Of a stretch of 64,000 nt of DNA, positions 26,294 through 42,197 are shown in pieces (the stretch's first letter is position 1; each line of letters starts with the position of its first letter). The notes beneath the pieces are model-generated. The model had not been told where the DNA came from, ran no database searches, and was given only the letters and a program-made list of their open reading frames with translations. The stretch covers positions 48,646 to 112,645 of the forward strand of contig CAZLVP010000003.1 of NCBI GenBank assembly GCA_964563055.1, given 5' to 3'. The stretch is from an uncultured Thermoplasmatales archaeon. Its GTDB lineage: Archaea > Thermoplasmatota > Penumbrarchaeia > Penumbrarchaeales > Penumbrarchaeaceae. The position numbers and the translations under genes are program-made.

Positions 26294-29041
26294 TCATTCT
26301 TCCCAGTCCATAACTGGGTCCTTTTTCCTAACAAGGAGCAGGACCAATGGTATGACGGTAACTATGATTAGGGGCAGCAGCAGGAGAAGCCAAAGGTACG
26401 ATCGGCCGTCTGGACCGTCACCCGGTAGGGGACTATCCTCGATCACCACTGTGAAGTTCACTACCAGTGTCACTCGGACCGATGGGTAATCTGGTAGAGA
26501 TGCCCGGAGAATGGCCGTGTAGGTCCCGATATCGAGGTCCAAAAGGACAACCTCCTTTCCTCTGTAGTTTTCCCCATCGACCATCCATACATAGTCCAGT
26601 TCTCTGGTATCGTTCGTTTCCGCCTTCAGCGTGATGTTCTCTCCCTTCAAAAATAACTGACGCTCTGTCGGAGAGACAATGAAAACCCCTTTAATGGGCG
26701 GGACCTGGGGCGGAGGTGGCCTCTCAAGGACCGTAATGTTCCATTTGACCTTAGTCATATGAGCCCCCGAAGCTATCTCGAGCATGACCTGAACGGTCTC
26801 CCCACCGGATAGCCCAAGTTGAGCAGGTCCGAAGGAGAGATAGGTCTTATTGAACTGTGCACGTCCCAGATATGTCCAGGTCGATCGAACAGGTGTCCCG
26901 TCCAGGTCGGTGGCATTGAAAGAGAGAGTAACTCCAACATCATAGGCCACCGTTAGGTTCCCTGGGGCCGGATCAAAAGAGCGGACGAAAGGTCTGTCGG
27001 TATCGTTCACATGAACTGTCCAGTTCATGAAGGTGGTTCCATCGTGCCCCTTACCATCAGAAACGTTCAGGACCAGACGGAAAGGGGAACCTATCGAGGA
27101 GTTTGGACCAAGGTAGTCCGGGGAGAGGACATATGCCGGACCATGGACAGGAAGGTCAAGGCCGTTCAACTCCCATCCGTAATCCAAGATATCGTCGTCT
27201 GGATCGAGAGCTTCCACCGAGAAATATTGAACGGCACCTTCTGACAGCCAGATCTCCTCCGACAGGGGTGTGACGTTCAAGAGCTCAGGCGGTCTGTTGA
27301 CATCAAATACGGTGATGTTCCATCCTACCGAGCTCATCTCTCCATCGAAGGTCTGACCTTCGTTCAAAGCGTAGGTCAGGACATAGGGTTCGGTCCGTGA
27401 TGAGCGGTCCCCAGTATGGTCGGTCGTGAAGTTGAGACTATCAGATAGAGAGATGGTCCTACCATCCAGGGTCCAGTTCCCCTTTAGTGACCTCCCATCT
27501 CTCATTGCAGAGGCAGAGAGGACCTTCCAACTGCCCTCGGCCAGCTGTAGATCGCCCTGAGGAGGGTCCACGGTCCATATAAGAAGAGACCTCTCCAGGA
27601 CCTGGAACCCCTTCCTGACCTGATCGTTGCTCTCGTTGATCTCTGGTATTTCGTCCTCAGGGTCTACAATAAGGGAGAGGTTGTAGGTCCCGGGTAGGTC
27701 GACCATGAAATCTATAGAAAGTTCAAGGACCTCTCCAGCTGGCACGGTCAGGTCGGACCGGTCCAAAAGGACCAACCCCAACTCGTCCAGGACCATTTTG
27801 ACCCTGAGTTCCTTGACAGCGTAATTGGAGGGATTCCTCACAAAGGCCCGGGCAGTGAAGGTATCGTCGATGCTCCCATTGCCGGTATGGGATATCTTTA
27901 ACGATGTACCGTCCAATTCAGCATCGGTCGCCCAGGTCGTGACCGTAGCGACGGCTATCGCATCAAGAAGCCCCACTACGGCAAGGACCCCGAAAGACCC
28001 ATGGTCAACTCGTGTCAATGTATCGTCAGGATAGTATGGTGCGAACAACGTCACATCGAAATCCCTGTCGCCGAGCAGCAGCGGGACAATGGTAGAAACG
28101 TTCCCGTCCGGGAAGAGGACCGTTACCACCGTGTTGCTGATGCTGGTCCTACCGGACACAGTGAAAGTGGACCCTGCTCTGACCGGTTGGGGGGAAGTGA
28201 CCTTAAGGCTCAGTCCGACCATGGCCGAATGCCTGGTGTACCTCTTCAGTTCCAGAGGGATGACCAGGACCGTGCCGTCAAGGTCGAGCTCGTATGACCT
28301 CTTGACGGTGTTCCCTACTGTTGAGTTGTAGAAGAGCGACCTCTTTCCATCGATGCTTATTGGAAGCACCGAGAAGGTCCCTGCCGGAACGGTCATCAGT
28401 TCCAAGGCCCCCAGCGAGTTGGTCCTGTTCATGGACAGGAGGTCCCCCGATGCACCGAAGGGCAATGCGGCGGTGACATTGGTCCACCAAATATCTCCCT
28501 GGACCAAAGGAAAATCAAACTCCTCAAGGGGCGGGGAGAACTCGTACCCGAAAGGGTAATCACCGTTCAGTGATGGAATGGACCCGCTTATTGACGCGTT
28601 GAGGACGGTCCTGTATAGGGATAGGTCCTGCACCTTGCTCCAGGTATATCCTTTGAGCTCGATATAGATGTCAAGGTCCAATATGAACGGGATGTAAAGA
28701 TGTCCTGAGATATTACCGGTCACATTCGTGATGTAGACCGGGGCCATGTCAAGAAATGGGTCCAGGATGACCTGGACGACGTTCATTTCAAGCCACCCCG
28801 AGAACGGGATCGGGAATCCCATGATGTCGACCTCGAACTCGGTCGTGTAGTTCCAGGAATCGGACGCCTCATAGACCGGTGCATCGATCCCATTGGCAAT
28901 ATCAAGGACAGGGTCAGGTCGCCTGGTGTCAGGTCCAGGTCCGCTCAGATATGAGGGTATGACCATGAGGAGGAGCGAGAGCGACACCGTGGCAATGGAC
29001 ACCATTTCACTACATAAAAAGCGTCTGGACCTATCCTTCAT
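26294..29041 (-). CDS. Large surface protein (915 aa) with a signal peptide and a C-terminal TM anchor ending RKKDPVMDWEE.
   Basis: The N-terminus is MVSIATVSLSLLLMVIPSYLSG. The C-terminal helix is LWLLLLLPLIIVTVIPLVLLLV followed by RKKD. It is rich in N-x-S/T sequons. Confidence 0.6.
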   Translation of the reverse strand: MKDRSRRFLCSEMVSIATVSLSLLLMVIPSYLSGPGPDTRRPDPVLDIANGIDAPVYEASDSWNYTTEFEVDIMGFPIPFSGWLEMNVVQVILDPFLDMAPVYITNVTGNISGHLYIPFILDLDIYIELKGYTWSKVQDLSLYRTVLNASISGSIPSLNGDYPFGYEFSPPLEEFDFPLVQGDIWWTNVTAALPFGASGDLLSMNRTNSLGALELMTVPAGTFSVLPISIDGKRSLFYNSTVGNTVKRSYELDLDGTVLVIPLELKRYTRHSAMVGLSLKVTSPQPVRAGSTFTVSGRTSISNTVVTVLFPDGNVSTIVPLLLGDRDFDVTLFAPYYPDDTLTRVDHGSFGVLAVVGLLDAIAVATVTTWATDAELDGTSLKISHTGNGSIDDTFTARAFVRNPSNYAVKELRVKMVLDELGLVLLDRSDLTVPAGEVLELSIDFMVDLPGTYNLSLIVDPEDEIPEINESNDQVRKGFQVLERSLLIWTVDPPQGDLQLAEGSWKVLSASAMRDGRSLKGNWTLDGRTISLSDSLNFTTDHTGDRSSRTEPYVLTYALNEGQTFDGEMSSVGWNITVFDVNRPPELLNVTPLSEEIWLSEGAVQYFSVEALDPDDDILDYGWELNGLDLPVHGPAYVLSPDYLGPNSSIGSPFRLVLNVSDGKGHDGTTFMNWTVHVNDTDRPFVRSFDPAPGNLTVAYDVGVTLSFNATDLDGTPVRSTWTYLGRAQFNKTYLSFGPAQLGLSGGETVQVMLEIASGAHMTKVKWNITVLERPPPPQVPPIKGVFIVSPTERQLFLKGENITLKAETNDTRELDYVWMVDGENYRGKEVVLLDLDIGTYTAILRASLPDYPSVRVTLVVNFTVVIEDSPLPGDGPDGRSYLWLLLLLPLIIVTVIPLVLLLVRKKDPVMDWEE

Positions 29042-30068
29042 GACCTTGTGAAGCGCCCTTCCTCCTAAAAGGGTTTCCCCGTAGCTGGGCTAGATAGACT
29101 GCGAAGAGGAGGACAAGCCCTGAGATCGTCTGGACCAAAGAAAGCCTGTCTCCCAGCATGATGTACCCGAAGATATAGGAGAAGACCGGGAGCAGGAACA
29201 CATAGAAGGTGATCCTGGAAAGCTCATCGCTGCGAATGACCCTGTACCAGACGATAGAGGTTGCAGCATAGATACAGACGGAGAGATAGATTAGGGATAG
29301 TAAAGCAGGAAGGCCTGCATCGAAAGCAAGTAGCGGGTCCTCGGCCCCCACGGCCCAGAATATGACCGCAATAGGCAAGAGAAGGAGAGTTCCCAGGGAC
29401 CCGTTCAATGCAATGATCGAGATCGGTTCGGCCCCTTCGTTCAAGGCCTTTTTTAGGAAGAGCCCAGAGAACGAGTAACAGAGGGCAGTGAGCAGGTTCA
29501 GCAATGCACCAACGGTCTCGTCCGAACCAAGGTCGAACCCGCTCTGGTCGTAGGTCGTCAGAAATGCAGTGGCCGGGATGGCTATCGCCAGCCCAACGAC
29601 CTTCCAGGTCGTGAGCCTTTCCCTCAGTATCACCCATGAAAGTGTAATGGTGAACACCGGGGATACGCTTTGCAGGAGCGATGCAAGGCTGGAGGTCGAA
29701 GACGGGTCCATCATGGTCATGCCTATGTTCTGGAAGATGTTCGGTAGGACAGTACCGAAGACCGCTGTTCCAAAAAATAGAAGGGCGAACCTCCTCTTCT
29801 TCAACCCTGCGAACAGAAGATATCTCGGCCTGAGGAACCTATTGTCGCCCTTAAATATGGCCAATGTAAAGAACAGGCCCAATATGAAAAGGAAGGCCAG
29901 AAAGGACCTTAAGAGGCCAAGTGTCAAGGGTGGGATGTCCTCTAGAGCCACTACCAGTGCCCAGAAGCTGGTCGAATAGACAACCATCGTAAGGACGGCC
30001 AGCACGGCCATCCTGTCCTTGACTTCAAGGCCTGGGTGAGGCAGTTGTGACCACCCTCCGGTCGGCAC
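29031..30068 (-). CDS. EamA/DMT-family transporter (10 TM).
   Basis: It has two EamA-like halves of 4-5 TM helices each. Confidence 0.7.
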   Translation of the reverse strand: MPTGGWSQLPHPGLEVKDRMAVLAVLTMVVYSTSFWALVVALEDIPPLTLGLLRSFLAFLFILGLFFTLAIFKGDNRFLRPRYLLFAGLKKRRFALLFFGTAVFGTVLPNIFQNIGMTMMDPSSTSSLASLLQSVSPVFTITLSWVILRERLTTWKVVGLAIAIPATAFLTTYDQSGFDLGSDETVGALLNLLTALCYSFSGLFLKKALNEGAEPISIIALNGSLGTLLLLPIAVIFWAVGAEDPLLAFDAGLPALLSLIYLSVCIYAATSIVWYRVIRSDELSRITFYVFLLPVFSYIFGYIMLGDRLSLVQTISGLVLLFAVYLAQLRGNPFRRKGASQGHEG

Positions 30069-30147
30069 CTTTTAACGGAGAGGTCCATATAAACCGTTAC
30101 ATCGAAGGTGCCTTCACGGACCTCACCGAAAGGGTTTAATCGATAAC

Positions 30148-30906
30148 TTGGCATCTTCGAGCACAGTCCGGGAAAGGAGGCGTGATGCCGTCATGACCGA
30201 TATGAGAAGGATATCCACCGGGATCCCAGGGCTCGATACGATGCTCAAGGGAGGGCTCATAGCGGGAAGGCCTTATACGGTCATTGGAGGCCCTGGCTCC
30301 GGGAAGTCCATATTGGCCTGGCAGTTCCTGCTAGAAGGGAATAGGAACGGTGAGACAGCGCTTTATATAACATTGGACGAGCCGTACTACGAGATAAGGG
30401 CCAACATGGAGGCCATTGGGCTGTTCGATCCCGGAATCAAGATAATGGACCTATCACCGGAGGATATGGCCCACAAGGGGGAATCTTCGTTCTCGGTCTA
30501 TCTAGAGAACGAACTCCCAAGGCAACTAGCTAGGATTTCCCCGGAGAGGGTCGTCCTAGATTCTACCACCTCTATCAAGGTCCTCGAAAAGGACCCTCTC
30601 TCGGCCAGGAGGGCGGTCCTTTCCCTGATGAAGCTGCTTTCCGAGCGAAAAGAGCAGGGTGGTGGCATAGACCAGATAACGTCCCTTCTCATCTCCGAGC
30701 TGGAGGGCGGCGACCATCCTATGGAGACCTATCTCTCACGAGGGGTGATAAGGCTCCATAGCTCCATGGTACGGGGCAGTAGGGTCCGGGCAGTGGAGAT
30801 AGAGAAGATGAGAGGGACGGATTTTGACGAGCAGTTAAGGCCTCTTCGCATTGGAAAGGGCGGTGTCCAGGTTGCAGAGAGGGACACGCTCATAAGTTTC
30901 CCTTGA
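30148..30906 (+). CDS. KaiC-like RecA-superfamily ATPase (single domain) with a canonical Walker A.
   Basis: ISTGIPGLDTMLKGGLIAGRPYTVIGGPGSGKSILAWQF is present. Confidence 0.65.
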   Translation: MASSSTVRERRRDAVMTDMRRISTGIPGLDTMLKGGLIAGRPYTVIGGPGSGKSILAWQFLLEGNRNGETALYITLDEPYYEIRANMEAIGLFDPGIKIMDLSPEDMAHKGESSFSVYLENELPRQLARISPERVVLDSTTSIKVLEKDPLSARRAVLSLMKLLSERKEQGGGIDQITSLLISELEGGDHPMETYLSRGVIRLHSSMVRGSRVRAVEIEKMRGTDFDEQLRPLRIGKGGVQVAERDTLISFP

Positions 30907-30918
30907 GGAGCATTAAGG

Positions 30919-31599
30919 ATGACAGCACCGACCAAGCCAGATATCGGGAGGGGGAGGAGCTCATCAACGGTCCGGGCCCGCCATCATAGGTTCGGGCCGA
31001 TCAGGTACATCTGGCGTCAGGTCTGGGGAGAGCGGGGAAGGAACCTTCTGACGTTCATGTCACTGGCCATTATGTCTACGGTCCTAACTATATTCCTGGC
31101 CGTGGATGAGGGATTGGACGACCATTTCAAGGACGATGTCGGGGTGCCAAGTGACGAGGACAAGGAGCTGTTCGAAGTGAAGGGGGTAATAGGTGTCTGG
31201 AGCTCCTTCATGCTCTTCCTCTGTGCATCATTGATGGCCCTATCAACGGCCAATGCATCCTCCATGGACATCCTGGAGAGGAGGTTCGAGCTTTCGACGC
31301 TCAGGGCCATAGGGACCCGGTTCCATCAGGTCCTAATGCTCCTGATATCCCCTTTGGTCCTGGTCATGATCTCGGGTCTGGTCATGGGACCTTTATTGGT
31401 CCTTGCGTCCCTTTCATTGATGGGGGACGACCCGAGGCTCCCTTTGGGCCCGGACATTGGGGTCCCGCTATCGTTCAACCTTGGGACGTTCCTCTTTGTA
31501 ATGGTCGTTGGGACCCTGGCCGCAGCTTTCGGCGCTGCCCCATCCCTGGTCTCAGTCCTGACCAGGTCACCTCTGGAGGTGTTAAGGGATGCCCCGTGA
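30919..31599 (+). CDS. FtsX-like ABC transporter permease (4 TM).
   Basis: It has four hydrophobic helices. ERRFELSTLRAIGTR is like the FtsX motif. Confidence 0.6.
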   Translation: MTAPTKPDIGRGRSSSTVRARHHRFGPIRYIWRQVWGERGRNLLTFMSLAIMSTVLTIFLAVDEGLDDHFKDDVGVPSDEDKELFEVKGVIGVWSSFMLFLCASLMALSTANASSMDILERRFELSTLRAIGTRFHQVLMLLISPLVLVMISGLVMGPLLVLASLSLMGDDPRLPLGPDIGVPLSFNLGTFLFVMVVGTLAAAFGAAPSLVSVLTRSPLEVLRDAP

Positions 31600-32326
31600 G
31601 CCGTTCATAGTCATCGAGGATGTCTCGAAGGGGTACAAAGTGGGAGGCCAGTCCGTCAATGCCTTGGACCATCTAACGATCACCATCGATAGAGGGGACA
31701 TGTGCGCCTTGATGGGTCCATCCGGTGCCGGGAAGACAACGCTATTGAACATGATAGGTGGCCTCGATGTCCCAGACAGCGGGAAGGTCATTGTTGGGAA
31801 CCTCGACCTGTCAAGATTGAACGAGATGCAGAGGGCCTCTTTCAGAAAGAGGAACGTGGGGTTCATATTCCAGTTCTACAACCTGATACCTTCACTCACT
31901 GCCTACGAGAACGTATTGGTCCCAGTGATGTTCGAGAGGGACCAGAAGCGAGGGAGGGCAGAGGACCTCCTTGACAGGATGGGCCTCTCACGGAGGTTGG
32001 ACCACCTCCCATCCGAGCTATCGGGCGGGGAGAAGCAAAGGGTGGCGATAGCAAGGGCGCTGATGAACGACCCCCCGCTGATACTTGCAGATGAGCCCAC
32101 TGGCAACATAGACTCCGAAACAGCAAGGGAGATAGTCTCGCTTTTCAGGCAGCTCAACGATGAGGGTAAGACGCTGGTACTGGCGACTCATGACAGGATG
32201 GTAGCCGGCAAAGCCCGGTCGATGCTGCGCATGAGGGACGGCCGGTTATCGGGCGGTAAGACCTCCACCAGGTCCGGGACTGTCCACCTTGCCTCATCAC
32301 AATACAAGGGTGCGGCAAAGGAGTGA
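31589..32326 (+). CDS. ABC transporter ATP-binding protein (MacB/LolD-like).
   Basis: Walker A GPSGAGKTT, signature LSGGEKQRVAIARAL and Walker B ILADEPTGNID are all present. Confidence 0.9.
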   Translation: MPREPFIVIEDVSKGYKVGGQSVNALDHLTITIDRGDMCALMGPSGAGKTTLLNMIGGLDVPDSGKVIVGNLDLSRLNEMQRASFRKRNVGFIFQFYNLIPSLTAYENVLVPVMFERDQKRGRAEDLLDRMGLSRRLDHLPSELSGGEKQRVAIARALMNDPPLILADEPTGNIDSETAREIVSLFRQLNDEGKTLVLATHDRMVAGKARSMLRMRDGRLSGGKTSTRSGTVHLASSQYKGAAKE

Positions 32327-32332
32327 TGGCAG

Positions 32333-33016
32333 GTGACCCAAGCGCCAAAGACCTTCACGACCGCCACATATGGCCTCTCGCATATGAGGCACAACAAGAT
32401 GAGGACCATGACCGTCATGGTAACATTGACCTTGACTATGGGATTTCTGATACTGACGCTCTCCCTTTTCTTTGGCCTCACCTCCCAGGTCGACCCGGAT
32501 TCCGAGAGGGAGGGTATACTTGAAGGCAGGGTCCCGACGTCGACGGACCTCTTCCGGGACCTGAGGATAGACAACGAAATGTCCGATGGGTCACGACAGG
32601 CCCTGGTCGAGCTTCTGCTCTTCACCACGGTCCTTGTCTGTGCCGTCTCCTTCTTCATAATCTACAATACCATGGCCGTCTCCGTCAGGGAGAGAAGGAG
32701 GGAGATTGGTATCCTCAGAGCGCTCGGTCTCTCCAGCTGGGAGGTCACAAAGCTCTTCCTTGCAGAGGGGGGGTTCATAGGATTGGTCTCTTGGATAAGT
32801 GCCTTGTTCCTTGGGATGCCGTTCATCCTGAACCTATCCGTTTACCTCCTTGAGAGAGGGGATACGACCTTCTTTTTCGTGGCACCTGCGATCCCTCCCC
32901 AGCTCCTTGTCGTATCCTTCCTGGTCAGTATAGGGCTCTGTCTTGTCTCCACCTACCTTGCGGCAAGGACAAGGATAGGCTCCTCCCCCGTTGAGCTGAT
33001 GCGGAGCCAGGAGTGA
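32333..33016 (+). CDS. FtsX-like ABC transporter permease (4 TM).
   Basis: RERRREIGILRALGLSSWEV is the classic FtsX/MacB motif. Confidence 0.7.
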   Translation: MTQAPKTFTTATYGLSHMRHNKMRTMTVMVTLTLTMGFLILTLSLFFGLTSQVDPDSEREGILEGRVPTSTDLFRDLRIDNEMSDGSRQALVELLLFTTVLVCAVSFFIIYNTMAVSVRERRREIGILRALGLSSWEVTKLFLAEGGFIGLVSWISALFLGMPFILNLSVYLLERGDTTFFFVAPAIPPQLLVVSFLVSIGLCLVSTYLAARTRIGSSPVELMRSQE

Positions 33017-33055
33017 GGTCTGACCCCACCGAAAGGCCCTCCTTCCCATCGGGCT

Positions 33056-33694
33056 ATGATTAAATATCACGAAGGTGCTCGAAGTCCCATGGCAAGGCCT
33101 GAGGAGATAAGGACCGCTCTCGAAACCTCTCTCGACATGGAGGAGACGAGGCGTGAGGTCGCCATAGGCAGTTCAAGGGCAGTGGTCCGCGAATGCAGGC
33201 ATGCCATATCGCTTATGGTCCGGACGGAACGACCTTGTGATGAGCAATTGCTTTTAAAGCCCGCCAAACCCCTACTCGATATGCTCAACAGGCACGAGAT
33301 ATTGGAAGCTGGGATCCTGGAGGATCCTCTGACGGAGGTGGCGGAGGCCCTGGTACTATCCAGGGTCCTTGAGGGGAAGGAGCTTCCAATGCCGTCAGAG
33401 GTCGGGATACCAGAGAGGGCATATGCCCTCGGGCTTTGCGATGCATTGGGGGAGATGAGGCGGGTCGTACTGAACCGTCTTCTCCGTGATGAGCTCGATA
33501 AGGCCATCTCCATGTACGGGTCTATGAAGGAGCTCTTCTCCATCATAGAAGGTCTCACATACCCCTCGGGGATGATACAGCTCAAGAGGAAACAGGATGT
33601 CGTCAGGGGGATATTGGACAGGACCGCCGGTGAACTGGCCATTTCGATGACGTCAAAAAGGGCGAATTCGGGTCCAGGAGGGTTGGGACGATGA
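33056..33694 (+). CDS. All-alpha protein, probably translin family.
   Basis: RAYALGLCDALGEMRRVVLNRLLRDELDKA resembles the translin 'GL.DLTGEL.R' helix. Size is 212 aa. This call is inference. Confidence 0.4.
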   Translation: MIKYHEGARSPMARPEEIRTALETSLDMEETRREVAIGSSRAVVRECRHAISLMVRTERPCDEQLLLKPAKPLLDMLNRHEILEAGILEDPLTEVAEALVLSRVLEGKELPMPSEVGIPERAYALGLCDALGEMRRVVLNRLLRDELDKAISMYGSMKELFSIIEGLTYPSGMIQLKRKQDVVRGILDRTAGELAISMTSKRANSGPGGLGR

Positions 33695-35298
33695 CTTCCA
33701 TACCAGATATTGAAAGTGACCCCTCTGGGACCAAAGGCCCTGATGTCAAGAAGGGTGCCAACCTTGAGGATATTGTGGTCTATTTCTCGGGCAAAGGGAC
33801 CCCGCACCCGATCTCCGAAGGAGTGGCCTCGGTCCGGCACCTTATGCTCGAGAACGGGTTCGATGAGCTTCTTACCTCACATTTCATAGAGGGAAAGGAT
33901 GTGAAGGACCTTCTGGGCAAGCTCCATATCACTTTCAGGGATGCCTTGTTCTACCTTTACACAAGCAGAATGGTCCCCATGGCCCCGACCAGGGAGGTCG
34001 AGGTCCAGATAGCAAGGAGGTTCCCCAATGTGGACCTAGCCCAGCTCTGGAACAATCTGGACGATATAGACGGGACCATAAGCGGAGAGGACCTTCTTGT
34101 ATCGCTCAAACACGACCTGGGCCTATCCCTTGAGGATGCATTGGAGCTCATGAACATGGTCCCCGAGCTCTCATCGAGCGGTCTACAGGCAACGGGATTG
34201 ACCCTCCGCGCGTTCATGCCCCTATCTTGGCTGTCCACGATCGAGGCCGTTTACGATGAGAAGGCCCTACCCATCAGGTTATTCACGGTCGGTACTATGT
34301 TCAGAAGGGAGCCCGTTCAGGACAAGACCCACATGAGGACCTACAACGTACTTTCCTTGGCCGTTTTCGATAAGGGGTTCACCATAGAGAAGGGGATCAC
34401 TGTCCTTAAAAGGCTGCTCTCGTCGATAAAGATAGAGAACACTTCCTTCATAGAGAAGACCTATTCGTATCCGTTCTTCGATAAGGGGACGGAGTACGAG
34501 GTCTTCGTTAACGGTCTGGAGATAGGGACATGCGGGATGATATCCTCAGACGTTCTGAACAGCATGAACGTGAACGCGAACCTGTTCCTTGCCGACCTGG
34601 GTATCGAACGTATACTGATGCAGCAAAAGGGATACCCTGATATCAGGGAGCTCTTCTATCCACAGTTCTTCTCTTCCTGGAACATCTCGGATTCGGAGCT
34701 CTCCTCCTCCATCAAGTATACCCACAGGCCCCTGACCCCGACCGGGCGGGATATTGCCAGGTCCATAGAGAGGGCGCTCAAGGAAATGAGAGGAAAGGAA
34801 GAGGCTGGACCTCTGGTCGTTTGGAAAGGGCACCTGATCACCAATGGGGATAGGGAGAACCTGGTCCCGGAAGGGTCCGCGGTCCCTGAAGGTAGTGGAG
34901 CGATTAAGGCGGAGCTCTTGATAGAGGAGGCCAAGGCAGGTATGGGGCTCTTCGGGCCAGGTGCCTTCGATCAGGTCTGGGTCAAGGAGGGTAATATCAT
35001 GGGCATCCCCCCGACCCTATCCAAAAAGGTCAGGTCAGAGGGGGGGTACAGGACCGGGAAGACCTATCTCAAGGCGTTCGCAAACTATGCTGGATGGAAA
35101 GTGGAGCGGTCTCTCTCCAGGGGAAGTACATCAAAGAGCTTCGAGATGGTCCGGAGGCTCGAGGACATCAACATGCATCTGAGCTCGAAGGCCCAGAACT
35201 ACATCCTAAGCAGGTCAAGGAAGGTAGATGTCAAGGGGCCTGTCTTCCTTAGGTTCAGGTTCGTTCTGGGTTCCCGCGCCCGACCGGTCCGTGATTGA
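33691..35298 (+). CDS. sepS: O-phosphoseryl-tRNA(Cys) synthetase (SepRS), a PheRS-alpha-like class II aaRS.
   Basis: Motif 2 reads LFTVGTMFRREPVQDKTHMRTYN, motif 3 reads ADLGIERILMQQKGYPDIRELFYPQ, and the C-terminus reads VDVKGPVFLRF. These match what I remember of SepRS at about 535 aa. The start overlaps the upstream stop in an ATGA. Confidence 0.65.
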   Translation: MTSIPDIESDPSGTKGPDVKKGANLEDIVVYFSGKGTPHPISEGVASVRHLMLENGFDELLTSHFIEGKDVKDLLGKLHITFRDALFYLYTSRMVPMAPTREVEVQIARRFPNVDLAQLWNNLDDIDGTISGEDLLVSLKHDLGLSLEDALELMNMVPELSSSGLQATGLTLRAFMPLSWLSTIEAVYDEKALPIRLFTVGTMFRREPVQDKTHMRTYNVLSLAVFDKGFTIEKGITVLKRLLSSIKIENTSFIEKTYSYPFFDKGTEYEVFVNGLEIGTCGMISSDVLNSMNVNANLFLADLGIERILMQQKGYPDIRELFYPQFFSSWNISDSELSSSIKYTHRPLTPTGRDIARSIERALKEMRGKEEAGPLVVWKGHLITNGDRENLVPEGSAVPEGSGAIKAELLIEEAKAGMGLFGPGAFDQVWVKEGNIMGIPPTLSKKVRSEGGYRTGKTYLKAFANYAGWKVERSLSRGSTSKSFEMVRRLEDINMHLSSKAQNYILSRSRKVDVKGPVFLRFRFVLGSRARPVRD

Positions 35299-35374
35299 GA
35301 TTGTTTCACCTATCTCCCTCTACGCTCCTTATATGTTCAGCTCATGTCCGGGTGTAACCGATGGAGAAAAGGTG

Positions 35375-37102
35375 ATGAAATCCCTAAAAAGGCAATGGAG
35401 GTACGCCCGAGAGGACATTGACCTGGCGGACAGGATATCGAGGGAGCTCGAGATCCCTCTCCTTGTATCCCGATTGCTAGTAGCTAGGGGGATGCGGGAT
35501 GCCGCATCGGTCCATGGGTACCTACACCCGGACCTTCGGCAGCTGCACGACCCGTTCCTGATGGATGGTATGGATGCTGCCGTCAAAAGGGTCACGGAGG
35601 CTATGGAGGGAAATGAGGTCCTGGGCATCCATGGGGATTACGATACCGATGGCATAACCGCAACCGCCCTCATGCTGACCGCCCTTGGCCGTAGGATGAA
35701 CAGAGAGAGGATGGTCTACAAACTGCCATCAAGGTACGACGAGGGTTATGGGATATCCGAGGATTCTGTGAGGGACATGTCCCGAGGCGGGGCGACCCTG
35801 CTCATATCGGTCGACTGTGGTGTACAGGCAATGGAGGCCGTCGACCTCGCTCGCACGCTGGGTATGGACGTGATAGTTACCGACCACCATGAGATGGGGG
35901 CAGAGCTCCCCAGGGCGCTTTCTATCCTTAACCCCAAGGTCAAGGGCTCAGGATATCCGTTCACAGGGCTTTCCGGTGTCGGGGTAGCGTTCAAACTGGT
36001 CCAAGCCCTCAGACTGAGGGATGCCATTTCCGGGGACATCAAGGACCTGCTTCACCTGGTGGCATTGGGGACCATAGCCGATCTCGTCCCTCTAACGGAC
36101 GAGAACCGCCCTCTTGTAAAGGAAGGCCTCCAGGTCCTTTCCTCCACAGGTTCCCCCGGGATCCTAGCCCTCATGAGGGAGACCGGTCTGGACCCGGTCA
36201 AGGGCATTTCGTCCGTCGATGTTTCCCATCGCCTTGCCCCAAGGCTCAATGCGGCAGGGAGGCTCGGGAACCCGGAAATGGCCCTGGAGCTCTTACTGAT
36301 AGAGGACAGGGTGGATGCCGAAGTGTTCGCTAGGGAGCTTAGCTCGTTGAACTTTCGGAGGCAGACAATAGCGGCCAGGGTGATGGGGGAGGCGCTGGAG
36401 ATGGCCAGGACGACAGGTGCGGTCGATAGACCGTCCATCATCGTGGCAAAGGAGGGGTGGAACCCCGGGGTCCTGGGTATAGCGGCGAGCAGGATGTTGG
36501 AGGAGACCGGAAAGCCCTCTGTCGTACTGACCATAGATGGGGGAACGGCGCGAGGGTCCGCAAGGGCCCCATCGGGCTTCGACATGCTCGCAGCCCTGGA
36601 ACGCTGCAAAGGTTTGCTCGACAAGTGGGGTGGTCACGATAGGGCGGCCGGAGTGACATTGGGGGCCGCATCCATCGCTTTGTTCCATGACGGTCTTGAT
36701 GCCTTCATCTCGGAGAGATATCCTATAGGCATTCCCCCACCGGTCATAGATATCGACCTTGACCTGATGCCAGTGGAGCTCGATGTACGGTCCATACTTT
36801 CGTTGGAGATGATGCGGCCCACAGGAATAGGGAACCCTTCCCCATCGGTTTCCATAAGGGATGCATCGGTAGGACCCAGGGTCCACGCGGTGGGTGAGGG
36901 TAAGCACCTCAAGTTCGATCTTTTGGGTGGTGACGGGCGGATAAATTGCATATGGTTCAATTCCGGAGAACGGGCTGGAAGTCTATTCCCCGGTTCCACC
37001 ATAAGCGTTTGTGGATGTCCAGAGATCAACAGATGGGGGGGGAACGAGGAGGTCCAGATCAGGGTATTGGACATCACTGGATGGGATCCCGAGCCCACAT
37101 GA
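35375..37102 (+). CDS. recJ: Single-stranded-DNA-specific exonuclease RecJ (DHH/DHHA1 plus OB fold; bacterial-type architecture).
   Basis: LLVSRLLVARGM, GDYDTDGITA, VIVTDHHE (DHH) and the DHHA1 GGHDRAAG are present. Confidence 0.75.
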   Translation: MKSLKRQWRYAREDIDLADRISRELEIPLLVSRLLVARGMRDAASVHGYLHPDLRQLHDPFLMDGMDAAVKRVTEAMEGNEVLGIHGDYDTDGITATALMLTALGRRMNRERMVYKLPSRYDEGYGISEDSVRDMSRGGATLLISVDCGVQAMEAVDLARTLGMDVIVTDHHEMGAELPRALSILNPKVKGSGYPFTGLSGVGVAFKLVQALRLRDAISGDIKDLLHLVALGTIADLVPLTDENRPLVKEGLQVLSSTGSPGILALMRETGLDPVKGISSVDVSHRLAPRLNAAGRLGNPEMALELLLIEDRVDAEVFARELSSLNFRRQTIAARVMGEALEMARTTGAVDRPSIIVAKEGWNPGVLGIAASRMLEETGKPSVVLTIDGGTARGSARAPSGFDMLAALERCKGLLDKWGGHDRAAGVTLGAASIALFHDGLDAFISERYPIGIPPPVIDIDLDLMPVELDVRSILSLEMMRPTGIGNPSPSVSIRDASVGPRVHAVGEGKHLKFDLLGGDGRINCIWFNSGERAGSLFPGSTISVCGCPEINRWGGNEEVQIRVLDITGWDPEPT

Positions 37103-42119: not shown

Positions 42120-42197
42120 GGGCACGTAGTATAGCCTGGATAATGCGTTAGCCTCCTAAGCTAAATGCCAAGGGTTCGAATCCCTTCGTGCCCGCCA
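42120..42197 (+). tRNA. tRNA-Arg (anticodon CCT), with CCA encoded.
   Basis: I folded it by hand. The acceptor GGGCACG/CGTGCCC, D stem GTAT/ATGC, anticodon stem TTAGC/GCTAA with loop CTCCTAA, T arm AAGGG-TTCGAAT-CCCTT, discriminator G and CCA are all in place. Confidence 0.8.

What the first reader, a model, noticed from the sequence alone, without database searches (positions are those of the whole stretch)
30148..37102. KaiC-like ATPase heads a tightly coupled operon with a MacB/FtsX-type ABC transporter, then translin-like, SepRS and RecJ
Seven co-directional genes have gaps or overlaps of at most 40 nt: KaiC-like ATPase (30148), FtsX permease (30919), ABC ATPase (31589, 11-nt overlap), FtsX permease (32333), translin-like (33056), SepRS (33691, ATGA overlap) and RecJ (35375). 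A RecA-superfamily signalling ATPase directly coupled to an FtsX/MacB-type transporter is not a textbook arrangement. It could be a regulated export or 'extractor' module; in bacteria FtsX couples cytoplasmic ATPases to extracytoplasmic hydrolases. The downstream translational coupling of nucleic-acid enzymes (translin-like, RecJ) with an aaRS is also unusual.
Basis: partly seen in the sequence, partly recalled or inferred. Interest (0 to 1): 0.5.

Follow-up and report, generated by a model that had tools for sequence, protein, structure and literature searches.

The report
KaiC-like ATPase with stripped-down FtsX transporter
In a group of uncultured sediment archaea, a small KaiC-like ATPase gene always travels with an unusually minimal FtsX/MacB-type ABC transporter, which suggests a new partnership; the neighbouring translin-like, SepRS-like and RecJ genes are a separate cluster that is already published.

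Summary
All seven ORFs exist, are co-directional and belong to the stated families. They are not one tightly coupled operon.

Unit 1 is the KaiC-like gene, FtsX1, the ABC ATPase and FtsX2 (30193-33016). It is kept in the same order in every sufficiently long locus carrying this KaiC subfamily: 14 species genomes plus 4 metagenome contigs. These fall into at least three unrelated genomic contexts. In the window's clade the internal gaps run from -11 to 16 nt.

Both permeases are about 226 aa and have the type VII (FtsX/LolC/MacB) membrane fold. They lack the Porter/Sabre extracytoplasmic domain. This "mini-FtsX" family is tiny and was found only next to this KaiC subfamily.

Unit 2, TRAX plus SepRS-like, and unit 3, bacterial-type RecJ, each sit behind a conserved TATA-like box. 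Two relatives carry insertions at the unit 1/unit 2 junction. Mukai et al. 2022 (PMC8762117) already described units 2 and 3. The "SepRS" has an altered phosphoserine pocket (Asn-X-Gly changed to Leu-Ala-Asp).

My best reading is that the KaiC-like ATPase is a dedicated cytoplasmic partner, either regulator or signal output, of a Porter-less type VII ABC complex. No physical interaction has been shown, and two KaiC relatives lack the transporter nearby. I rate it a new variant of a known kind, of moderate interest.

The parts
30125..30142 (+). BRE/TATA-like promoter motif ACCGAAAGGGTTTAATCG upstream of the KaiC-like gene
   Evidence: It is conserved almost letter for letter in 11 of 13 clade-A loci. 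The low-GC clades have CGAAATTAATATA at the same place. It is the only match in the 64 kb window at up to 2 mismatches. The promoter function is inferred, not shown.
30193..30906 (+). Single-domain KaiC-like (RecA-superfamily) ATPase, 237 aa, no TM segment
   Evidence: PF06745 scores 142.9 bits. It falls below every NCBIfam KaiC equivalog cut-off. Walker A GPGSGKS, TLDEP, Walker B VVLDS and KMRGT are all present (alignment A1). The AF2 model has pLDDT 86.5, and its best structural matches are PH0284 (2dr3, TM 0.81) and KaiC CI. The PDB sequence search gives the same picture.
30919..31599 (+). FtsX1: 226-aa four-TM FtsX-domain permease with a basic N-terminal tail and a loop of about 27 aa between TM1 and TM2
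   Evidence: PF02687 scores 46.8 bits with no MacB_PCD hit. Topology comes from a hydropathy scan. An ortholog is present in all loci L001-L017.
31589..32326 (+). ABC ATPase of the LolD/MacB/FtsE type; overlaps FtsX1 by 11 nt
   Evidence: ABC_tran scores 124.8 bits. Top NCBIfam hits are LolD 226 bits, MacB NBD 214 bits and FtsE 206 bits, all below their equivalog cut-offs. Walker A, LSGGEKQR, Walker B plus catalytic E and the H-loop are intact.
32333..33016 (+). FtsX2: 227-aa four-TM FtsX-domain permease with a 45-aa acidic, disordered TM1-TM2 loop
   Evidence: PF02687 scores 70.3 bits. The AF2 model has pLDDT 73.9; residues 53-81 are below 50 and there are no strands. The best Foldseek PDB hits are FtsX 8tzj_C, LolC/E, YtrF, MacB, HrtB and BceB, all at probability 1.00.
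33060..33067 (+). TATA-like box TTAAATAT, 29 nt upstream of the conserved translin-like ATG
   Evidence: A TATA-like box lies 29-32 nt before the conserved ATG in 9 of 10 clade-A loci. This includes L005 and L006, where an insertion separates it from FtsX2. In L002 the 'ATG' inside the motif is followed by an in-frame stop. I infer a promoter for a leaderless transcript.
33089..33694 (+). Translin-like / TRAX homolog (start revised from 33056)
   Evidence: PF01997 scores 30.6 bits. The PRK14562 family scores 114.8 bits. TRAX-SepRS is described as an ancestral operon in PMC8762117.
33691..35298 (+). SepRS-like protein (full length, altered phosphoserine pocket); ATGA overlap with TRAX
   Evidence: TIGR00470 scores 204 bits against a cut-off of 380. 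It aligns over residues 36-523 to SepRS 2odr and 2du3. Relative to 2du3 it has H186F, T188P, S231V, N325L and G327D. This matches the 'Ile/Leu-X-Asp' class of PMC8762117.
35303..35334 (+). Conserved T/C-rich element (GTTTCACC...CTCC) followed by a TATA-like TTATAT between SepRS-like and RecJ
   Evidence: The motif GTTTCTTTCNCC-N-CTCC plus a TATA-like box is conserved after the SepRS-like stop in all 10 clade-A loci. I infer a terminator followed by a promoter.
35375..37102 (+). Bacterial-type RecJ exonuclease
   Evidence: TIGR00644 scores 474 bits against a cut-off of 396.9. DHH, DHHA1 and RecJ_OB domains are present. GGAG/AGGTGA precedes ATG 35375.

Best explanation
The region holds three adjacent units, not one seven-gene operon.

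Unit 1 (30193-33016) is a lineage-specific four-gene module: KaiC-like ATPase, FtsX1, ABC ATPase and FtsX2. I read it as follows.
- It encodes a LolCDE-style complex: an FtsX1/FtsX2 heterodimer plus two copies of the ATPase.
- The membrane domains have the type VII (MacB/FtsX) fold but have lost the Porter/Sabre extracytoplasmic domain.
- Its work is therefore done within or at the membrane, not by pushing on an external partner.
- The soluble single-domain KaiC-like ATPase, probably a ring like its closest structural match PH0284, is a dedicated cytoplasmic partner.
- The KaiC-like protein either gates the transporter's ATPase cycle through its nucleotide or phosphorylation state, or reads the transporter's conformational state as a signalling output. 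Comparable pairings are FtsA with FtsEX, BceS with BceAB, and ArlH with ArlI.

Unit 2 (TRAX plus SepRS-like, 33089-35298) and unit 3 (recJ, 35375-37102) are the previously described Thermoplasmata TRAX/SepRS-like/recJ cluster. They lie next to unit 1 only in the high-GC clade.

Shown: gene content, order, spacing, conservation, folds, intact ATPase motifs, and loss of the extracytoplasmic domain.

Inferred: complex stoichiometry, physical contact between the KaiC-like protein and the transporter, the direction of regulation, the promoters, and the substrate.
For: Synteny.
- Among 80 species-genome loci holding KaiC relatives, all 17 with 48% identity or more carry the transporter as far as their contigs reach. 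Fourteen are complete; L009-L011 are cut inside FtsX1.
- None of the 63 more distant loci has an FtsX gene.
- Four metagenome contigs reached from the FtsX2 side also have the KaiC-like gene. L088 and L089 have KaiC followed by FtsX1.

Flanks differ between clades.
- Clade A: EamA/CARDB upstream, TRAX downstream.
- Clade B: RFC and DUF362 upstream, GNAT and MscS downstream.
- Clade C: a 1080-1107 aa surface protein upstream and a NosD-like gene downstream.

Phylogeny and spacing.
- Transporter-linked KaiC proteins form one clade in an NJ tree.
- Clade-A gaps are 4-14 nt (KaiC to FtsX1), -8 or -11 nt (FtsX1 to ABC) and -4 to 16 nt (ABC to FtsX2).
- Shine-Dalgarno-like sequences precede each gene.

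The mini-FtsX family is closed.
- In a search of 5.8 billion proteins, 39 short clusters score 191-356 bits. The score then drops to 85 bits for ordinary 380-aa permeases with MacB_PCD.
- The exhaustive 1.84-billion representative search lists only about 10 short full-length representatives.
- Two short outliers turned out to be fragments of frameshifted ordinary genes.
- FtsX1 and FtsX2 are distinct paralogs kept in every clade.

Fold and missing domain.

Unit boundaries.

Units 2 and 3 are published.
Against: - There is no direct evidence of contact between the KaiC-like protein and the transporter, and I found no KaiC-FtsX or KaiC-ABC gene fusion.
- All cases lie in one phylum. There are only three or four independent flanking contexts, so inheritance of an ancestral arrangement explains part of the conservation.
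- There are two exceptions. L018, whose KaiC nests inside the linked clade, has no transporter within 10 kb. Metagenome contig L090 has convergent genes directly downstream.
- In the low-GC clades the KaiC to FtsX1 gap is 37-471 nt. That is enough for separate transcription.
- Only five residues are conserved specifically in the linked KaiC proteins, so no obvious docking surface emerges.
- The promoter and terminator calls rest on conserved motifs only. Read-through from FtsX2 into TRAX cannot be excluded, because the window has no T-run there.
Confidence: 0.55

Rival explanations
1. Historical synteny only. The KaiC-like gene happens to sit upstream of the transporter in the common ancestor of these Thermoplasmatota and has stayed there without any functional link.
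For: - All loci are from one phylum.
- The flanks within each clade are also conserved, for example the whole ten-gene block in L001-L013. That shows synteny is generally sticky in these lineages.
- Gaps of 37-471 nt in the low-GC clades allow independent transcription.
- L018 and L090 show that this KaiC can live without the transporter next to it.
- Distant KaiC relatives sit in unrelated housekeeping contexts such as LigT, SepF and Cdc6.
Against: - The four genes stay together while everything around them changes in three or four contexts.
- Both the KaiC subfamily and the mini-FtsX family are small. Every mini-FtsX locus that could be inspected has the KaiC gene.
- In clade A the genes are separated by 4-14 nt or overlap.
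Confidence: 0.22
2. One reading: one seven-gene, translationally coupled operon in which the KaiC-regulated exporter is functionally tied to the translin-like protein, SepRS and RecJ.
For: - All seven genes are co-directional with short gaps.
- The order is conserved in 10 clade-A genomes.
- There is no T-run terminator after FtsX2 in the window, so read-through is possible.
Against: - Conserved TATA-like boxes lie 29-32 nt before the TRAX ATG and also before recJ.
- There are insertions of 0.7 kb (L005) and 1.8 kb (L006, a PAS histidine kinase) between FtsX2 and TRAX.
- Clades B and C keep the four-gene module without TRAX, SepRS-like or recJ beside it.
- TRAX-SepRS is an old operon found in many archaea that have no such transporter (PMC8762117).
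Confidence: 0.08
3. The module serves the large surface protein encoded divergently upstream. It would insert, anchor or release that CARDB-domain protein in the membrane, with the KaiC-like ATPase acting as a cytoplasmic motor or checkpoint.
For: - A 915-aa CARDB-domain protein with N- and C-terminal hydrophobic segments lies upstream on the other strand in clade A. It is directly adjacent in L004, L006 and L013.
- An unrelated 1080-1107 aa CARDB/DUF11 surface protein occupies the same position in clade C.
- LolCDE, the closest characterised heterodimeric relative, extracts lipid-anchored proteins from the membrane (fold matches).
Against: - Clade B has DUF362 and RFC in that position instead.
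- The clade A and clade C surface proteins show no sequence similarity.
- Such proteins are common in archaeal genomes, so two out of three or four contexts may be chance.
Confidence: 0.1
4. The KaiC-like protein is a RadA-paralog-type DNA repair ATPase that works with RecJ and the translin-like nuclease. The transporter is then the unrelated neighbour.
For: - There are weak NCBIfam hits to RadA/Sms, RadB and RecA.
- SSO2452, a RadA paralog, is among the PDB sequence matches.
- RecJ and TRAX are nucleic-acid enzymes encoded nearby.
Against: - The KaiC gene travels with the transporter and not with TRAX, SepRS-like or RecJ in clades B and C.
- Its best matches are KaiC and PH0284, far above RadA.
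- Three transporter genes and a promoter separate it from TRAX and recJ.
Confidence: 0.03

Closest known systems
LolCDE (type VII ABC lipoprotein extractor of Gram-negative bacteria)
   Same: It has two different four-TM FtsX-domain permeases plus a separate LolD-type ATPase encoded together. LolD is the best NCBIfam hit of the ATPase (226 bits). LolC and LolE are among the top structural matches of FtsX2.
   Different: LolC and LolE are about 400 aa with a roughly 200-aa Porter/Sabre periplasmic domain that binds LolA. Here the TM1-TM2 loops are about 27 and 45 aa and disordered. All scores fall below the equivalog cut-offs. This system is archaeal, has no outer membrane and no LolA, and carries an extra KaiC-like gene.
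FtsEX (type VII ABC signal transmitter of bacterial division)
   Same: V. cholerae FtsX is the best structural match (8tzj_C, TMq 0.68). FtsE scores 206 bits. From the literature, FtsEX also contacts a cytoplasmic ATPase, FtsA (PMC7343993, listed).
   Different: FtsX is a homodimer with a Porter-containing extracytoplasmic domain that binds EnvC, PcsB or RipC. Here the permease is a heterodimer with no such domain, there is no peptidoglycan, and the partner belongs to the KaiC family rather than the actin family.
BceAB-BceS (type VII ABC transporter in complex with a signalling kinase)
   Same: It is a type VII transporter whose conformational cycle is read by a dedicated cytoplasm-facing signalling protein. 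BceB appears among the fold matches (7tch, 8g4c). It is a precedent for the 'transporter as sensor, partner as output' reading.
   Different: BceB has ten TM segments with a large extracellular domain. BceS is a membrane histidine kinase, not a soluble RecA-superfamily ATPase.
Archaeal single-domain KaiC-like ATPases (PH0284, PH0186, ArlH/FlaH; 'RAD55 family ATPase')
   Same: It is a single RecA/KaiC domain of about 235 aa. PH0284 (2dr3) is the best structural match (TM 0.81, 29% identity). By analogy, ArlH is a KaiC-like accessory protein of another membrane-associated ATPase machine (bioRxiv 10.1101/2021.03.19.436134, listed).
   Different: It is not an ArlH ortholog (E 0.002, 17.7 bits against a cut-off of 215). 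It falls below the cut-offs of all curated archaeal KaiC subfamilies. I found no described KaiC-like protein linked to an ABC transporter: no paper among the 12 listed of the 60 retrieved mentions KaiC together with MacB, LolCDE or FtsEX.
Thermoplasmata TRAX / SepRS-like / recJ cluster (Mukai et al. 2022, PMC8762117)
   Same: The gene order is identical. The lineage is the same (high-GC Thermoplasmata from Guaymas-type sediments). The Asn-X-Gly to Leu-X-Asp change is the same.
   Different: Nothing substantive differs; this part of the finding is already described. That paper does not mention the upstream KaiC/ABC genes (0 occurrences).

Membership tests
Type VII ABC transporters (MacB/FtsX/LolCDE superfamily) | Permease with the FtsX domain (PF02687) and four TM helices | tested here: met
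   PF02687 scores 46.8 bits (FtsX1) and 70.3 bits (FtsX2) against a cut-off of 25.5. The hydropathy scan and the AF2 model both give four TM helices.
Type VII ABC transporters (MacB/FtsX/LolCDE superfamily) | Membrane-domain fold like MacB, FtsX or LolC | tested here: met
   The top 50 Foldseek PDB hits are all type VII permeases: FtsX, LolC/E, YtrF, MacB, HrtB, BceB and YbbP. Probability is 1.00, and TMq is 0.68 to 8tzj_C.
Type VII ABC transporters (MacB/FtsX/LolCDE superfamily) | Extracytoplasmic domain with a Porter subdomain between TM1 and TM2. The MacB review says this is present in all known members (PMC5985334). | tested here: not met
   The TM1-TM2 loops are about 27 aa (FtsX1) and 45 aa (FtsX2). 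There is no PF12704 hit. Residues 53-81 of FtsX2 have pLDDT below 50 and no beta strands.
Type VII ABC transporters (MacB/FtsX/LolCDE superfamily) | Cognate ATPase of the LolD/MacB/FtsE type with intact catalytic motifs | tested here: met
   The best NCBIfam hits are LolD, MacB NBD and FtsE (206-226 bits, all below their equivalog cut-offs). Walker A, signature, Walker B and H-loop motifs are read directly in the sequence.
Type VII ABC transporters (MacB/FtsX/LolCDE superfamily) | Dimeric assembly (two permeases, two ATPases) and a mechanotransmission cycle | not testable with these tools
   The heterodimer is inferred from two conserved paralogs in every locus.
KaiC (circadian clock protein) | Two tandem RecA-like domains (CI and CII), about 500 aa, with the equivalog score reached | tested here: not met
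   The protein is a single domain of 237 aa. TIGR02655 scores 47 bits against 546, and NF006799 scores 91 bits against 408.
KaiC-like / RAD55-family single-domain ATPases (Pfam PF06745) | KaiC-type RecA fold with Walker A, Walker B and catalytic acidic residues | tested here: met
   PF06745 scores 142.9 bits against a cut-off of 26.6. GPGSGKS, TLDEP, VVLDS and KMRGT are conserved. TM-score is 0.81 to PH0284 and KaiC CI.
KaiC-like / RAD55-family single-domain ATPases (Pfam PF06745) | Hexameric ring and autophosphorylation | not testable with these tools
   The residue aligned to KaiC S431 is not conserved within the subfamily. No conclusion is drawn.
SepRS (O-phosphoseryl-tRNA synthetase) | Equivalog score, and the phosphoserine pocket including the Asn-X-Gly motif | tested here: not met
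   TIGR00470 scores 204 bits against a cut-off of 380.65. In A. fulgidus numbering the changes are T188P, S231V, N325L and G327D (Leu-Ala-Asp). That these pocket residues matter is stated in PMC8762117. The individual residue numbers come from my own memory of Fukunaga & Yokoyama 2007.
SepRS (O-phosphoseryl-tRNA synthetase) | Full-length architecture with class II core and C-terminal anticodon-binding domain; TRAX neighbour | tested here: met
   It aligns over residues 36-523 to chain positions 62-552 of 2odr. The TRAX homolog overlaps it by ATGA.
Bacterial RecJ | DHH, DHHA1 and RecJ OB domains, with the equivalog score reached | tested here: met
   TIGR00644 scores 474 bits against a cut-off of 396.9. 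PF01368, PF02272 and PF17768 are all present.
Translin/TRAX | Translin family domain | tested here: met
   PF01997 scores 30.6 bits against a cut-off of 25.9, but covers only residues 112-185. The archaeal PRK14562 models score up to 114.8 bits, below their cut-offs.

The most novel reading that the evidence does not exclude
A RecA/KaiC-family ATPase is a true subunit or obligate signalling partner of an ABC machine. On this reading, the Porter-less type VII complex is a membrane-state sensor or lipid extractor whose ATP-driven cycle is timed by, or reported through, a KaiC-like ring. That would be an archaeal counterpart of BceAB-BceS flux sensing. It would also give the first concrete membrane input or output for the proposed 'KaiC-like signalling hubs' of archaea.
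Probability: 0.3. Interest if true: 0.65.

Novelty: new variant of a known kind. Interest (0 to 1): 0.42.

Why it matters
- Single-domain KaiC-like ATPases are among the most abundant uncharacterised ATPases of archaea, and very few have a known partner. A subfamily that is tied to one defined membrane machine gives a testable entry point.
- The permeases are also the smallest type VII units I could find. They keep the MacB/FtsX membrane fold but drop the Porter domain, which is thought to be intrinsic to mechanotransmission. This raises the question of what the bare membrane domain can do alone.
- The organisms are uncultured sediment Thermoplasmatota, so the practical impact is limited until the proteins are expressed heterologously.
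- The SepRS-like, TRAX and RecJ part remains functionally open but is already in the literature.

Tried and rejected
1. A metagenome scan with the FtsX2 alignment failed because no stretch was conserved enough. I used a profile protein search plus contig look-ups instead.
2. The Makarova, Galperin and Koonin 2017 paper on archaeal KaiC-like neighbourhoods is not in the held library. I could not check whether an ABC or FtsX link is listed there.
3. PADLOC shows no defence-system family for the KaiC-like protein or FtsX1. The ATPase gives only generic ABC hits.
4. Short FtsX proteins outside the family (P0145, P0172) are fragments of frameshifted ordinary MacB-type genes.
5. ABC genes near distant KaiC relatives are not independent repeats of the association. 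L119 is SufC/SufBD. L140 is an ordinary MacB-type pair on the other strand with a gene in between.
6. There is no homology between the upstream surface proteins of clades A and C.
7. A search for KaiC residues specific to the linked clade gave only five positions and no clear patch.
8. The sigma-70 promoter and terminator scanner was not used because the organism is an archaeon. I looked for BRE/TATA-like motifs and T-runs instead.
9. A residue-name literature search for the SepRS pocket found nothing relevant. The Front Genet paper settled the point.
10. A complex prediction of the KaiC-like protein with the ATPase was not possible with the single-chain tool.

Full report
**Source and gene content.** The window comes from an uncultured Thermoplasmatota archaeon. 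The KaiC-like protein is 100% identical to a database protein on a 166-kb contig, and its named relatives are all Thermoplasmatota MAGs.
- a single-domain KaiC-like ATPase
- two short FtsX-domain permeases
- an ABC ATPase whose best matches are LolD, the MacB NBD and FtsE
- a translin-family protein
- a SepRS-related class II synthetase
- a bacterial-type RecJ

The FtsX1/ABC 11-nt overlap and the translin/SepRS ATGA overlap are exact.

**Corrections to the observation.**
- The KaiC-like gene starts at ATG 30193, with AGGAGG 12 nt upstream, not at TTG 30148.
- The translin-like gene most likely starts at 33089.
- The synthetase scores 204 bits against the SepRS cut-off of 380.

**Synteny test.**
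- I scanned one genome for each of 185,579 species with a KaiC alignment and obtained 80 loci.
- I compared them with the window proteins by tblastn and by an iterated profile search over all their ORFs.
- All 17 loci whose KaiC is 48% or more identical to the window's carry FtsX1, the ATPase and FtsX2, in the same order and orientation. Three of them are cut by the contig end inside FtsX1.
- None of the 63 more distant loci has any FtsX gene.
- Starting instead from the permease, a profile search of 5.8 billion proteins found 39 short FtsX clusters (204-245 aa) at 191-356 bits. The score then dropped sharply to 85 bits for ordinary 380-aa permeases with the MacB periplasmic domain.
- The four long contigs I could inspect from the short group (L081, L083, L084, L085) all have the KaiC gene upstream.
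- An exhaustive search of 1.84 billion representatives lists only about ten short full-length representatives.
- Two short outliers were fragments of frameshifted ordinary genes.

**Genomic contexts.** The four genes sit in different surroundings in different clades.

| Clade | Loci | GC | Upstream | Downstream |
|---|---|---|---|---|
| A | window, L001-L013 | 46-57% | EamA and a CARDB surface protein | TRAX, SepRS-like, RecJ, HAD |
| B | L016, L081, L083-L085 | 41-45% | RFC and DUF362 | GNAT and MscS |
| C | L014, L015, L088, L089 | 35-41% | unrelated 1080-1107 aa surface protein | NosD-like gene |

In an NJ tree the transporter-linked KaiC proteins form one clade.

Gaps in clade A are 4-14 nt (KaiC to FtsX1), -8 or -11 nt (FtsX1 to ABC) and -4 to 16 nt (ABC to FtsX2). 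In the low-GC clades the KaiC to FtsX1 gap is 37-471 nt.

There are two exceptions:
- L018's KaiC nests inside the linked clade, but it sits among TPR, HEAT and tubulin-family genes with no transporter within 10 kb.
- Contig L090 has convergent genes directly downstream of KaiC.

**What the proteins look like.**
- The KaiC-like protein is soluble and has intact Walker A, Walker B and acidic catalytic residues.
- Its model (pLDDT 86.5) is closest to the P. horikoshii RecA-superfamily ATPase PH0284 and to KaiC CI (sequence level).
- It reaches none of the curated KaiC, ArlH or RadA equivalog cut-offs.
- Each permease has four TM segments.
- The FtsX2 model (pLDDT 73.9) matches only type VII permeases in the PDB: FtsX, LolC/E, YtrF, MacB, HrtB, BceB and YbbP.
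- Between TM1 and TM2 there are only about 27 aa (FtsX1) and 45 aa (FtsX2). These loops are acidic, predicted disordered and without strands, and there is no MacB_PCD hit.
[quoted passage not shown] These proteins therefore fail one defining feature of the family while keeping the membrane fold.
- FtsX1 and FtsX2 are distinct paralogs kept in all clades, which points to a LolC/LolE-like heterodimer.

**Not one operon.** The junctions after FtsX2 and after SepRS-like behave as unit boundaries.
- In 9 of 10 clade-A loci a TATA-like box lies 29-32 nt before the conserved TRAX ATG. In the window this is TTAAATAT at 33060-33067, with the ATG at 33089.
- The motif is conserved as DNA. In L002 the ATG inside it is followed by an in-frame stop.
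- The motif moves with TRAX in L005 and L006, where 0.7 kb and 1.8 kb (a PAS histidine kinase) are inserted after FtsX2.
- After the SepRS-like stop all ten clade-A loci share a T/C-rich element followed by a TATA-like box ahead of recJ.
- Upstream of the KaiC gene, ACCGAAAGGGTTTAATCG is nearly invariant in clade A. The low-GC clades have CGAAATTAATATA there.

These are motif-based inferences. No transcript data were available, and read-through cannot be excluded.

**The downstream genes are already described.**
- Mukai et al. 2022 (PMC8762117, section 3.3.1 and Figures 6-7) report SepRS-like proteins in two Thermoplasmata lineages.
[quoted passage not shown] - My alignment to A. fulgidus SepRS shows exactly that change: N325L and G327D, plus T188P, S231V and H186F.
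- The paper does not mention KaiC, ABC or FtsX.

**Interpretation.**
- The best-supported reading is that the KaiC-like ATPase is a dedicated cytoplasmic partner of a minimal, Porter-less type VII ABC complex.
- Because the extracytoplasmic domain is missing, the classic role of pushing on an external hydrolase or adaptor is unlikely. Work inside the membrane, as for the lipid moieties handled by LolCDE or HrtBA, or a sensor-like role is more plausible.
- Precedents for a cytoplasmic or signalling partner on type VII machines are FtsA with FtsEX and BceS with BceAB. ArlH with ArlI is a precedent for a KaiC-like accessory ATPase.
- The direction of control and the substrate are unknown.
- The main rival is inherited synteny without function. 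It is weakened by the changing flanks and by the exclusive pairing of two small families. It is kept alive by the two exceptions and by the wide gaps in the low-GC clades.
- I found no paper linking KaiC with MacB, LolCDE or FtsEX. I could not read the key 2017 survey of archaeal KaiC neighbourhoods.

**Verdict.**
- The KaiC/mini-FtsX module is a new variant of known kinds and of moderate interest.
- The TRAX/SepRS-like/recJ part is already known.

Noticed in passing
window 26294-29041 (-) and 29031-30068 (-); L014 1460-4702 (-); L015 744-4067 (-): Large CARDB-domain surface proteins with hydrophobic N- and C-termini are transcribed divergently from the KaiC/ABC module in clades A and C. In clade A the protein overlaps an EamA transporter gene by 11 nt. 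The clade A and clade C proteins share no detectable sequence similarity.
   Followed up: partly
L018 9046-13797: The one KaiC ortholog inside the transporter-linked clade that lacks the transporter nearby is overlapped by a TPR protein gene. It also lies near a HEAT/TPR protein and a 545-aa tubulin/FtsZ-family protein.
   Followed up: partly
L022, L023, L026-L029, L034 (around 9400-12600 in L022): More distant KaiC-like relatives (38-42% identity; several are Altiarchaeota MAGs, others are unclassified archaea) sit between a LigT-like 2',5' RNA ligase gene and convergent SepF. Four of these loci also have a Cdc6/Orc1 gene nearby.
   Followed up: no
L030-L037, immediately downstream of the KaiC match (e.g. 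L032 1908-2549): Another group of relatives is followed by a roughly 200-aa degenerate KaiC-like protein that hits DUF7504 and DUF835. This looks like an active/inactive KaiC pair.
   Followed up: no
window 30124-30133 and 33027-33036: The exact 10-mer CACCGAAAGG occurs only twice in the 64 kb. One copy is inside the KaiC promoter motif and the other is 24 nt upstream of the TRAX TATA-like box. With one mismatch there are 11 matches against 4.3 expected. The second copy is not conserved in L001.
   Followed up: partly
protein P0218 (2786 aa, from the representative library): A giant protein carries six FtsX domains, one MacB_PCD and a C-terminal adenylate/guanylate cyclase domain. Its first FtsX unit matches the whole mini-FtsX profile without an extracytoplasmic domain. 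It is an example of FtsX membrane units fused to a signalling output. Its origin and context are unknown.
   Followed up: partly
L006 6900-8500: The 1.8-kb insertion between FtsX2 and TRAX in this relative encodes a PAS-domain histidine kinase.
   Followed up: no
window 35375-37102: The RecJ is of the bacterial type and passes the bacterial equivalog cut-off. It scores only 59 bits on the archaeal RecJ model. This suggests horizontal acquisition by this archaeal lineage.
   Followed up: no
window 42120-42197 (+): This is the only RNA gene found in the window: tRNA-Arg(CCT).
   Followed up: no
window 30086-30094: A second TATA-like element (CATATAAAC) lies in the divergent intergenic region and is conserved in L001, L003 and L007. 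It is positioned to drive the minus-strand EamA/CARDB operon, whose start is about 20 nt away.
   Followed up: no
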